The position numbers were made by a program, and so were the translations under genes. A DNA stretch of 64,000 nt from Narcine bancroftii (lineage: Eukaryota), in the NCBI RefSeq assembly GCF_036971445.1, contig NC_091476.1, positions 139,314,001 through 139,378,000 of the forward strand, written 5' to 3'. This document shows positions 58,301-60,595 of the stretch, in pieces. Position 1 is the stretch's first letter, and every line of letters begins with the position of its first letter. Below the pieces are notes generated by a model. It made no database searches. It saw only the letters and a program-made list of their open reading frames with translations, and was not told where the DNA came from.

Positions 58301-60595
58301 TGGCTGCAAGTGATCAGGGTCCAGGCCGATTATTCCATTCTCCAAGACACTGCCAAGGATGGCCAGATGGGTTGTGCAAAACAAGCACTTGGCCTTATTA
58401 TATGTAAGGTTAAGGAGCTTCACTGTTTTGAGAAATTTCTGGAGATTGGTGTCATGTTTCTGTAGGTCGTGGCCGCAGATAGTGACGTTATCAAGTATAG
58501 GAAAATGGCCTGCAACTTGTACTGATTGACCATATGGTCCATCTCCCCCGGAAGACCGATACCGTTTGTGACACCACAGGAAGTGGAAGAGGCAGCCATC
58601 TGCCTCGAATGCCATATACTGGCAGTCCTCTGGGTAGATAAGGAGCTGGTGGTATGCCAACTTCAGGTCATTAGTCGATGCTGGTCACTGGTTGACCATC
58701 TCGGCGATGCATAGGATAGAGTATGCATCCAATTGCGTGTATCTGTTGATGGTCTGACTTTAGTCGATAACCATCCTAATCTTTTCCCATTCTGTACTAT
58801 CACTACCTGTGCTCTCCAAAGGCTGATACTGGCTTCAATAATCCCCTCCTTGAGTAATGCTGTGCATCAGCCTGCAAGAAGACCCTGTCCCTGGCACTGT
58901 ACCACCTACTTTTAGTGGCAACGGAATTACAGTCTGGAGTGAGGTTGGCAAGTAACGATGGGGGGTGATTTTAAGTGTGGAGAGCCTGCAGGTCATGCGC
59001 GATGAGTGTTTGGGTTGTTGGCCATGTACAATGGAGGGTTGGTGGTGCGCAGTGTTCTATTCAAAAATTGCCAGTTATACACAGTGAGGGGGTGGATGGG
59101 GCCTATCGAACTCCATCATCAGGTTATTAAGTGGTCATTGAAAATCCAGTCCCAACTGCACAGCAGCACAGAGCTACGGCATTACCATCAGCTTTTATAT
59201 TCAATACCCTGCACCATTAGAGTAACTATACAGAAGCTTCGGACGTTTACTGTGCGACTTAGATGTCAAGGAGGCCTTCTGGTTCACTGGCAAAACTGTA
59301 AGGGAAGCAACTTGTCTCGTGTCCATTTAACTGAATATCCATCCTCAACCTGGCGAGTTGATGTGGGCTGTCCTGGTTGAGTGTGATGGAGGCCAGTGTC
59401 GGGTCAGTGCACGTTGCTGTTGTGAAAGATGGTGGTGTCCAAGATAGCAGCCCCTAGGGCCTGCACACGGTGCTGCTGGGTTCTGAAGATGGCGCTCAAG
59501 ATGATGCCGGCCCCCACGGATTGCACTTGGTGCTGCTGACTCCGGGTAGTGGCAATGTCCAGGGTGGCAGTGCTGCTAGGAAGAGGTTTCAACATGCACA
59601 CTTTGGCATAGTGCCCTTCTTCCTGTAACTGGAACAAGTTGAATCCTTTGCTGGGCAGAGTTTCCTCTAATGCTTGCCCAGGCCACAGAAATAGCACTTG
59701 AGGAGCTCCCATAGCACCACAGTTGCAATGGGGTTGCCACCGGAGCTGAGCAAAAGTGACAGGAGGTGATCGTGGAGCAGTGGTGCCATGCTTTAGTCGT
59801 TAGTGGAGTGAAAGGGTAGTGACGCATCCCAAGATGGTCGCGCCTGTGGTAGCCACAAGGTGGCTGTGTTGTCAGTCGAGTAGGCCTCCAGCTTGACTGC
59901 TCTCATAGACTGAGCTCCCCTTGCTCCAAGAGTCTTTGTTCGATGTAGTTTGACCTGGTCCCTGTAACGCAAGTGTTCTGGATCAGGTCTTCAGTGTACT
60001 CCACAGCGGACACGGCCTTGCATTCACAGGTCCTACCAAGTGATCGCAGGGCTCAAAGATATTCCGCGTTGGTCTCATCGGGTCTTTGTTTCCAGATCCC
60101 TAGAAGGTGTCTGATGTAGACAGCATTGATCTTATGCAGGTACTGTCCTTTGAGTATGTCCATGGCTTCCTGGTACAATGTAGCATCTCTGATCATGGAT
60201 TTCACCAGGATGCTGACCCAGGAGTGCAGCACTTGTAGCTTATCTGTCTCTGATCGCACAATGGTGGAGGAAGCATGCAGGAATGCTTCAAAGCAGTGCA
60301 GCCAAAGCTCAAAGTTGCTGGATTCCTCAGGCAATTGAGGGTCGATCTCCAGCTGTTCCGTCTTCAGGATCTGCAACATTGATTAAAAAACCTTTGTGAA
60401 TAAAATTGATGCATCATCAATTACTCAAAAGACTCTTGTTGAGAAACCAATAGGCTTTTATTCACTTAAGAACAACCATGCATCTATACTGTTCAACAGC
60501 CACCTTTATACTGGAGCCTGTCGGGAGGGGCCACAGATGCAATCGGTCAATAGTTGTGCCTGACCAAACAATTATACATAACAGTGTTTTTCACA
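55395..60595 (-). mobile_element. Two-LTR Gypsy retrotransposon (Mag-like), decayed, with a nested solo LTR
   Basis: LTRs at 55395-55611 and 60407-60595, 5-bp TSD TGTCA/TGCCA, and PPT AAGGGGTGAA before the 3' LTR on minus. Gag at 60053-60379 with a double zinc knuckle near 59595-59700 (CYFC....H....C PAK..TC...RKKGHYAKVC). RT at 58199-58660 (LDNVTICG). Integrase at 57259-57504 (IIDDYS.FPF..IHSDRG) and 56612-57238. Confidence 0.92.
55641..56651 (+). mobile_element. Solo LTR (1011 bp) with perfect 4-bp TSD
   Basis: TGTGACA...ATAACA termini with CAAT at 55637-55640 and 56652-56655. It has a (GA)n tract, TATAAG near 56406 and ATTAAA near 56567. Confidence 0.9.

What the first reader, a model, noticed from the sequence alone, without database searches (positions are those of the whole stretch)
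60396..60465. Mag-like Gypsy element without a tRNA PBS but with a self-complementary primer site
Seen: just inside the 5' LTR end (60407) there is no TGG-type PBS. Instead the minus strand reads, after 1 nt, TTTTATTCAC (60405-60396). This is the exact complement of GTGAATAAAA (60465-60456) inside the LTR, which overlaps the polyA signal. Known: Tf1-type elements self-prime reverse transcription by pairing the transcript 5' end with the PBS position. Inference: this Mag-like lineage may self-prime, with a transcript starting near 60465. The match is short and AT-rich, so chance is possible, but it sits exactly at the PBS position.
Basis: partly seen in the sequence, partly recalled or inferred. 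Interest (0 to 1): 0.7.

Follow-up and report, generated by a model that had tools for sequence, protein, structure and literature searches.

The report
Self-priming Gypsy retrotransposon, internal primer
This decayed jumping gene and its relatives in many animals have no tRNA docking site but carry a 14-letter stretch that pairs with their own end-repeat, so they likely start copying themselves with a piece cut from inside their own RNA rather than from its very tip as the yeast element Tf1 does.

Summary
Observation confirmed. It is the worn remnant of a 14-bp pairing between the primer-binding position (1 nt past the 5' LTR) and an LTR segment ending in AATAAAA. In 80 genome copies the 7 free positions pair 6.11/7 against 4.06 permuted, with 14 different perfect stems. 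In distant metagenome relatives 42 of 51 loci (13 of 14 families) show it with unrelated letters, and none has a TGG site. Self-priming is very likely (0.88).

TATA plus Inr spacing in two families puts the RNA start about 38-39 nt upstream of the paired segment. A young sister family left 141 integrated copying accidents. Their junctions peak at AAAA|GCC (11 of 29) and, more weakly, near the predicted start, which suggests a roughly 52-nt primer cut from the 5' R region (0.6), unlike Tf1's first 11 nt.

No chromodomain was found; 'Mag-like' could not be tested. No paper on this was found in the 10 searches. This scan reported the clade and fold-back inserts before on other DNA.

The parts
60407..60595 (-). 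5' LTR (TG...CA, 189 bp; lacks a 30-bp stretch that the 3' LTR has, including the predicted start site)
60596..60600 (-). target-site duplication, 5' copy TGGCA (3' copy TGACA at 55394-55390)
60505..60510 (-). TATA box TATAAA, with a reversed CCAAT-like word and a C-rich box upstream
60456..60469 (-). arm 1: 14-nt putative primer 3' end, ending in the poly(A) signal AATAAAA; predicted cut between 60456 and 60455 (AAAA|GCC)
60407..60455 (-). loop: rest of R and U5, with short predicted hairpins
60392..60405 (-). arm 2: primer-binding position, 1 nt (60406) after the LTR; no TGG; 12 of 14 positions pair with arm 1 in this copy (one is G-U)
59906..60379 (-). gag N-terminal region, starting 13 nt after arm 2; broken by stops and frameshifts
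56873..59699 (-). broken gag C-terminus, protease, RT, RNase H and integrase in Gypsy order, spread over several frames
55633..56659 (.). about 1 kb of a repeat between integrase and the polypurine tract, also present at 17354-18388 and partly at 10491-11225; probably a later insertion
55612..55620 (-). polypurine tract AGGGGTGAA
55395..55611 (-). 3' LTR, with TATAAA at 55525-55520, Inr-like A at 55493 (32 nt after TATA, 39 nt before arm 1) and a decayed arm 1 at 55454-55441

Best explanation
This is a decayed Gypsy-type LTR retrotransposon whose primer-binding position pairs with a 14-nt segment of its own LTR, and the whole clade likely primes reverse transcription with that segment instead of a tRNA. 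Inferred steps: (1) the RNA starts about 38-39 nt upstream of the segment; (2) the segment, which ends in the poly(A) signal, folds onto the site 1 nt past the LTR; (3) the RNA is cut at AAAA|GCC in the 5' R copy, probably by the element's RNase H as in Tf1 (not tested); (4) this frees a capped primer of about 52 nt with only its last 13-19 nt paired; (5) minus-strand strong-stop DNA therefore ends at the cut and jumps to the stretch of the 3' R behind the poly(A) signal. The same stem would also hide the 5' poly(A) signal. Confidence is 0.88 for self-priming and about 0.6 for the internal 5'-R primer.
For: Covariation in the genome: in 80 pattern-selected copies, 7 free positions pair 6.11/7 against 4.06 +/- 0.14 permuted (maximum 4.59 in 10,000); slid registers give 1.4-2.9; 32 of 80 are perfect, with 14 different 14-mers; pairing falls to 0.21 at position 15. 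In a similarity-selected set, 79 of 94 were scorable and gave 11.2/14 against 9.75. Stem types fall in several parts of a gag tree. Distant relatives: 42 of 51 metagenome loci reach at least 12/14 against null means of about 4-8; 13 of 14 families have the stem; none has TGG after the LTR; GCC or ACC follows arm 1 in 11 of 13. LTR ends there are fixed by near-identical LTR pairs with 5-bp duplications. L131, a young copy, has a one-step compensatory change in both LTRs and the site. A young family in G000 has 14 of 19 perfect stems. Fossil junctions: 141 run-through matches against 0 in the control. 7 of 14 inserts with two U3 ends carry perfect 5-bp duplications, and two of these join arms of different variants. 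11 of 29 junctions to foreign sequence lie within -5..+4 of the predicted cut and 3 lie at -55..-46. 6 of 13 inverted arms that stop early end 40-63 nt from the cut; the Inr-like A is at -52. Promoter spacing.
Against: No RNA start, cut or primer was observed. The window copy itself is imperfect, and its 5' LTR has lost the predicted start site. The permutation tests ignore relatedness among copies. The junction classes were sorted by hand and the window widths chosen after seeing the data, so the p-values (1e-5 local, 0.008) are descriptive only. The peak at the cut is also the stem-loop boundary of a fold-back DNA and an A-run, so it could arise without a cut in the 5' R. Most inverted arms run on through U3, three into the polypurine tract, which a 3'-end primer explains equally well. 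Mixed copies gave no clear linkage: L205 and L249 point in opposite directions. A long primer gives no obvious stop for plus-strand copying. 9 of 51 metagenome loci scored under 12/14.
Confidence: 0.85

Rival explanations
1. Tf1-type priming exactly: the transcript starts at arm 1 and its first 14 or so nucleotides are the primer.
For: Sharp end of pairing at 14 bp in the window's family. A short primer gives a natural stop for plus-strand copying, as in Tf1 (PMC7175516, passages).
Against: A TATA-like word 20-38 nt before arm 1 in only 2 of 80 copies; Inr-like A 38-39 nt upstream in 44 of 49; the same geometry in the young family. Stems are 13-19 bp and arm 1 begins mostly with T or C across families. 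Early-ending inverted arms cluster at 40-63 nt, although the search pattern could not see arms shorter than 25 nt.
Confidence: 0.12
2. Self-priming by the RNA's 3' end: arm 1 in the 3' R copy pairs with the site and is cut after AAAA, so the primer is the end of the genomic RNA (U3-R).
For: Most inverted arms continue through TATA and U3 to the LTR start, and 3 continue into the polypurine tract. L318 and L386 join arms from different variants. Three junctions near -52 fit strong-stop DNA made on an uncut 5' end.
Against: Junctions peak at the cut rather than at the RNA start (11 against 3 of 29). The TRIM-like family and 6 of 13 early-ending arms stop near the predicted cap. Read-through into U3 also follows from a jump of arm 2 onto the 3' R.
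Confidence: 0.15
3. The stem only hides the 5' poly(A) signal to stop premature polyadenylation, and an unknown host RNA primes.
For: Arm 1 ends in AATAAA or ATTAAA in 7 of 13 distant families and in both G000 families. Arm 2 exists only behind the 5' LTR.
Against: The stem always starts 1 nt after the LTR, where a primer's 3' end must sit. 14 variants in one genome cannot share one host primer. Arm 1 lacks a canonical signal in 6 of 13 families, and L121 has ATTAAA outside the stem. Masking may still be a second role.
Confidence: 0.04
4. A chance match of AT-rich sequence.
For: The 10-mer is 80% AT, and the single window RNA does not fold better than shuffles (z = -1.17).
Confidence: 0.005

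Closest known systems
Tf1/Tf2 (Schizosaccharomyces pombe), Tj1, Tosmo and the Tf1/sushi group of chromoviruses
   Same: No tRNA site; an LTR segment pairs with the primer-binding position; Gypsy domain order; neighbouring helices are predicted. Tf1 cuts its primer with RNase H between bases 11 and 12 (PMC7175516 and 10.1101/2022.12.06.519325, passages read).
   Different: In Tf1 the primer is the first 11 nt of the RNA. Here it is predicted to lie about 39 nt inside R, to be 13-19 bp and usually to end in the poly(A) signal. No chromodomain in 3 intact relatives.
Tcn1 clade and Ty1/copia TAR (Houba, Osr-1) elements of plants
   Same: Predicted self-priming outside fission yeast (PMC6317226, passages read).
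   Different: Other lineages and hosts; no link to the poly(A) signal appears in the passages read.
Dictyostelid Skipper, fungal GalEa hairpin site, bivalve biv-TRIM
   Same: LTR elements without a canonical tRNA site (PMC5006619 and PMC6934838, passages read).
   Different: Skipper is stated to have no complementary LTR region; the GalEa and biv-TRIM inverted repeats lie inside the internal domain.
Mag lineage (A, B, C clades) and the Cigr-1 clade of animal Gypsy elements
   Same: Compact animal Gypsy elements. Cigr-1 is a recalled lead only (about 4.2 kb, one ORF, ascidian); an ascidian protein is among the RT relatives.
   Different: Membership untested. PMC6238403 (passages) lists these clades and contains no occurrence of 'PBS' or 'primer'. 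The original Cigr-1 paper was not read and may mention the primer site.

Membership tests
Ty3/Gypsy LTR retrotransposon | gag-protease-RT-RNase H-integrase order between TG...CA LTRs, with polypurine tract and short target-site duplication | tested here: met
   best solved-structure match is Ty3 Gag-Pol
tRNA-primed LTR elements | TGG-led site complementary to a tRNA 3' end | tested here: not met
   No TGG in the window, in 80 copies (pattern-fixed start) or in the best locus of 14 distant families
half-tRNA-primed elements | site complementary to an internal tRNA stretch | not tested
   No host tRNA set was compared; 14 covarying variants argue against one tRNA
Tf1/sushi self-priming group | LTR segment complementary to the primer-binding position | tested here: met
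Tf1/sushi self-priming group | primer is the 5' tip of the transcript | tested here: inconclusive
   Promoter spacing and junctions point about 39 nt upstream; no RNA ends were available
Tf1/sushi self-priming group | chromodomain at the integrase C-terminus | tested here: not met
   No chromodomain family in 3 intact relatives at E <= 0.01
Tf1/sushi self-priming group | three-duplex 'pretzel' leader | tested here: inconclusive
   A 3-7-bp stem starts right after arm 1 in distant families (no null computed), and some folds extend onto the gag start; covariation of these helices was not tested
Tf1/sushi self-priming group | RNase H cleavage releases the primer | not testable with these tools
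   Only indirect: junction peak at AAAA|GCC
Tf1/sushi group, Mag lineage or Cigr-1 clade | RT/RNase H/integrase tree position with named references | not testable with these tools
   No named reference sequences were held; the relatives found are unnamed or generically named

The most novel reading that the evidence does not exclude
A large animal-wide Gypsy clade without chromodomain (relatives in sharks, rays, sea cucumber, sea anemone, ascidian, nematodes) invented self-priming separately from Tf1. It cuts its own RNA just behind the poly(A) signal, uses the roughly 52-nt capped 5' piece as a tRNA substitute, and the same helix shields the 5' poly(A) signal. Integrated copying accidents in the genome record the cut site and the RNA start.
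Probability: 0.5. Interest if true: 0.8.

Novelty: new variant of a known kind. Interest (0 to 1): 0.7.

Why it matters
In the papers read, self-priming is shown for Tf1 and predicted for its chromovirus relatives and one plant copia lineage. A widespread animal clade doing it with an internal primer would extend the mechanism. It would explain why annotation tools find no primer site in these elements, and it would make them independent of host tRNA and of silencing by tRNA fragments (inference). It also offers one helix that may serve both priming and 5' poly(A) suppression. The fossil junctions give exact predictions (cut at AAAA|GCC, start 52 nt upstream) that RNA mapping can test.

Tried and rejected
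A word-based protein search with the decayed gag found nothing; the profile search did. No RNA holder was listed. Contigs of three guessed-RNA runs laid on the 3' LTR and on the young family gave no usable starts or ends. Folding the single window RNA was not better than shuffles. The idea that the window's shorter site variant has a matching LTR variant was not confirmed: none of the 4 ordinary copies with the 2-nt-shorter LTR carried it. Linkage in mixed copies did not separate 5' from 3' priming. A gag query from another species returned mostly the same family, but revealed the young family. Eleven inserts with one U5 and one U3 end (8 of 9 with at least 4/5 duplications) turn back at the cut, but an 8/9 microhomology there explains them too, so they were not counted for the cut. 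Chance hits among the run-through patterns: 3 of 14 and 3 of 7, plus one ordinary element of another family. Literature: ten full-text searches listed no paper describing this clade's priming. The library lacks most subscription papers. Levin 1995, Lin and Levin 1998 and DeMarco 2004 were not held, and no supplements were read.

Full report
Observation. On the minus strand the 5' LTR ends in CA at 60407; one A follows, then TTTTATTCAC, the complement of GTGAATAAAA at 60465-60456. The chance of that 10-mer in this LTR is about 5e-4. The element spans 60595-55395, with LTRs about 80% alike, a 4/5 target-site duplication and a polypurine tract. Its gag-pol is broken but in Gypsy order. A repeat of about 1 kb lies before the 3' LTR. 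The family is large: 20,737 first-look candidates for gag in a 3.3-Gb genome. The nearest named gag relatives come from sharks and rays, with a farther one from a sea cucumber. RT relatives include nematode, sea anemone, sea cucumber, ray and ascidian proteins.

Covariation within the genome. Copies show a 14-bp stem, not a 10-bp one. Of 94 distinct loci, 79 could be scored; they pair 11.2 of 14 against 9.75 +/- 0.16 when the arms are permuted between copies. A pattern that fixed only the anchors gave 432 matches against 1 in the control. I fetched 80 of the first 83 listed; the other 3 were already held. At the 7 free positions these pair 6.11 against 4.06 +/- 0.14 permuted (maximum 4.59 of 10,000) and 1.4-2.9 in slid registers. 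32 of 80 are perfect, with 14 different 14-mers, and pairing falls to 0.21 at position 15. The permutation ignores relatedness. A gag tree of 65 of the 80 shows stem types in several separate groups, with weak resolution. The stem has mean pairing probability above 0.5 in 62 of 80 single-copy folds. The window copy is an imperfect one, and its fold alone is unremarkable.

Distant relatives. A metagenome scan gave 59 loci; 8 lacked the gag start and were left out. Of 51, 42 pair at least 12 of 14, against null means of about 4-8. They form 14 families; 13 have the stem with unrelated letters, perfect runs reach 19 bp, none has TGG, and GCC or ACC follows arm 1 in 11 of 13. Arm 1 ends in AATAAA or ATTAAA in 7 of 13, so the poly(A) signal is usual but not constant. 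Intact members are 4.0-4.2 kb, several with one frame of 1187-1238 codons, near-identical LTRs and 5-bp duplications, which fix the order CA, A, arm 2. They have no chromodomain. L131 carries a one-step compensatory change. A young family in G000 has 14 of 19 perfect stems.

Where the RNA starts. Among the 80 copies a TATA-like word was found in 38 and an Inr-like motif in 49. Their spacing is 31-32 nt in 23 of 26, and the Inr-like A lies 38-39 nt before arm 1 in 44 of 49. Only 2 of 80 have a TATA-like word 20-38 nt before arm 1. The young family, with a different LTR, has TTAAAG at -84 and an Inr-like A at -52 from the end of arm 1. The motif definitions are recalled consensus words, so this is prediction. 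The window's 5' LTR has lost this stretch; its 3' LTR keeps it. The RNA data at hand were contigs and showed no ends.

Fossil copying accidents. A pattern for an LTR end followed by complement running past the 14-mer found 14 hits in the old family, 11 of them real: an LTR, one A, and an inverted copy of the LTR from the end of AATAAAA backwards. A second pattern gave 3 more of 7. L103 and L115 have perfect duplications. In the young family there are 141 such junctions against 0 in the control; 80 of the 100 listed were read. Of 14 inserts with two recognisable U3 ends, 7 have perfect 5-bp duplications, so they were integrated as such. In L318 and L386 the two arms are different stem variants, so two molecules were joined. 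In 29 loci the LTR part is joined on its left to foreign sequence, often antisense pol. 11 of these junctions lie within -5..+4 of AAAA|GCC (1.1 per nt), 8 lie in U5 (0.21), 4 at -45..-6 (0.10), 3 at -55..-46 (0.30) and 3 further up (0.02). This is the profile expected if strong-stop DNA ends at a cut in the 5' R, sometimes earlier, and sometimes at the cap of an uncut RNA. Of 13 inverted arms that stop early, 6 end 40-63 nt from the cut, and a TRIM-like family stops at 43-52. Caveats: hand classification, windows chosen afterwards, an A-run at the junction, and the fact that the cut is also the stem-loop boundary of a folded DNA. Three arms run on into the polypurine tract, so they were copied from an RNA 3' end or a 3' LTR, which a 3'-end primer would explain as well.

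Mechanism. Shown: the conserved, covarying complementarity in a fixed register 1 nt from the LTR, the absence of a TGG site, and integrated products joined in that register. Inferred: minus-strand DNA must start next to the LTR end, and the only partner known here that covaries with the site is arm 1, hence self-priming (0.88). Inferred less firmly: a cut at AAAA|GCC in the 5' R and a primer of about 52 nt (0.6). By analogy only: RNase H as the cutter. Masking of the 5' poly(A) signal is a plausible second use.

Comparison and novelty. Tf1 uses the first 11 bases, cut by RNase H (PMC7175516, passages), within a three-duplex structure in chromodomain-bearing elements (10.1101/2022.12.06.519325, passages). 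Self-priming is also predicted for Tcn1 and copia TAR (PMC6317226, passages). This element works like Tf1 but is not filed in its group: there is no chromodomain and the primer appears internal. 'Mag-like' is untested; Cigr-1 is a recalled lead (one search lists only PMC6238403, whose passages do not discuss primers). Other papers seen as passages only: PMC3601003, PMC6934838, PMC5006619, PMC5341516, PMC5443660. Ten searches found no description of this clade's priming, in a library that lacks most subscription journals. This scan noted the clade in at least six earlier reports and fold-back inserts in two; these are unchecked AI notes, read after my own covariation and first fold-back results. 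What this window adds, as far as those short notes show, is the within-genome covariation count and the junction map for the cut and the RNA start.

Noticed in passing
L325-L328, L339, L362, L379, L388-L391: A TRIM-like family: LTR, A, a 43-52-nt inverted copy of arm 1 plus R, then a second LTR; 5-bp duplications and tandem arrays of 278-bp period. Probably one origin.
   Followed up: partly
L322, L332, L334, L340, L345, L348, L355, L359, L376, L377, L382: Solo-LTR-like inserts with about 26 nt of inverted U5 placed exactly between AAAA and GCC, in four sequence/junction combinations, mostly with target-site duplications.
   Followed up: partly
L292-L300, L306-L308: A young related family in G000 (240-bp LTRs 99.6% alike, open frames up to about 1490 codons) with a perfect 14-bp stem.
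   Followed up: partly
window 55633-56659, 17354-18388, 10491-11225: An unidentified repeat of about 1 kb, inserted in this element and present twice more in the window.
   Followed up: no
window 7263-8858 (-): A decayed pol of a more distant Gypsy-type element (25% to P0158); no LTR pair was seen in 2001-16000.
   Followed up: partly
window 51180-51981 (-): Broken DDE_1 transposase (pogo/Tigger-like, label recalled).
   Followed up: no
window 40945-41038 and 41345-41437; 62021-62110: 94-bp inverted repeats 98% alike (MITE-like), and a 90-nt imperfect palindrome.
   Followed up: no
P0021 cluster: The gag N-terminus is annotated as fused to nuclear envelope integral membrane protein 1a in two catshark species; possible exon capture.
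   Followed up: no
L265: A further related family in G000 with a different LTR and a decayed stem at the same position.
   Followed up: partly
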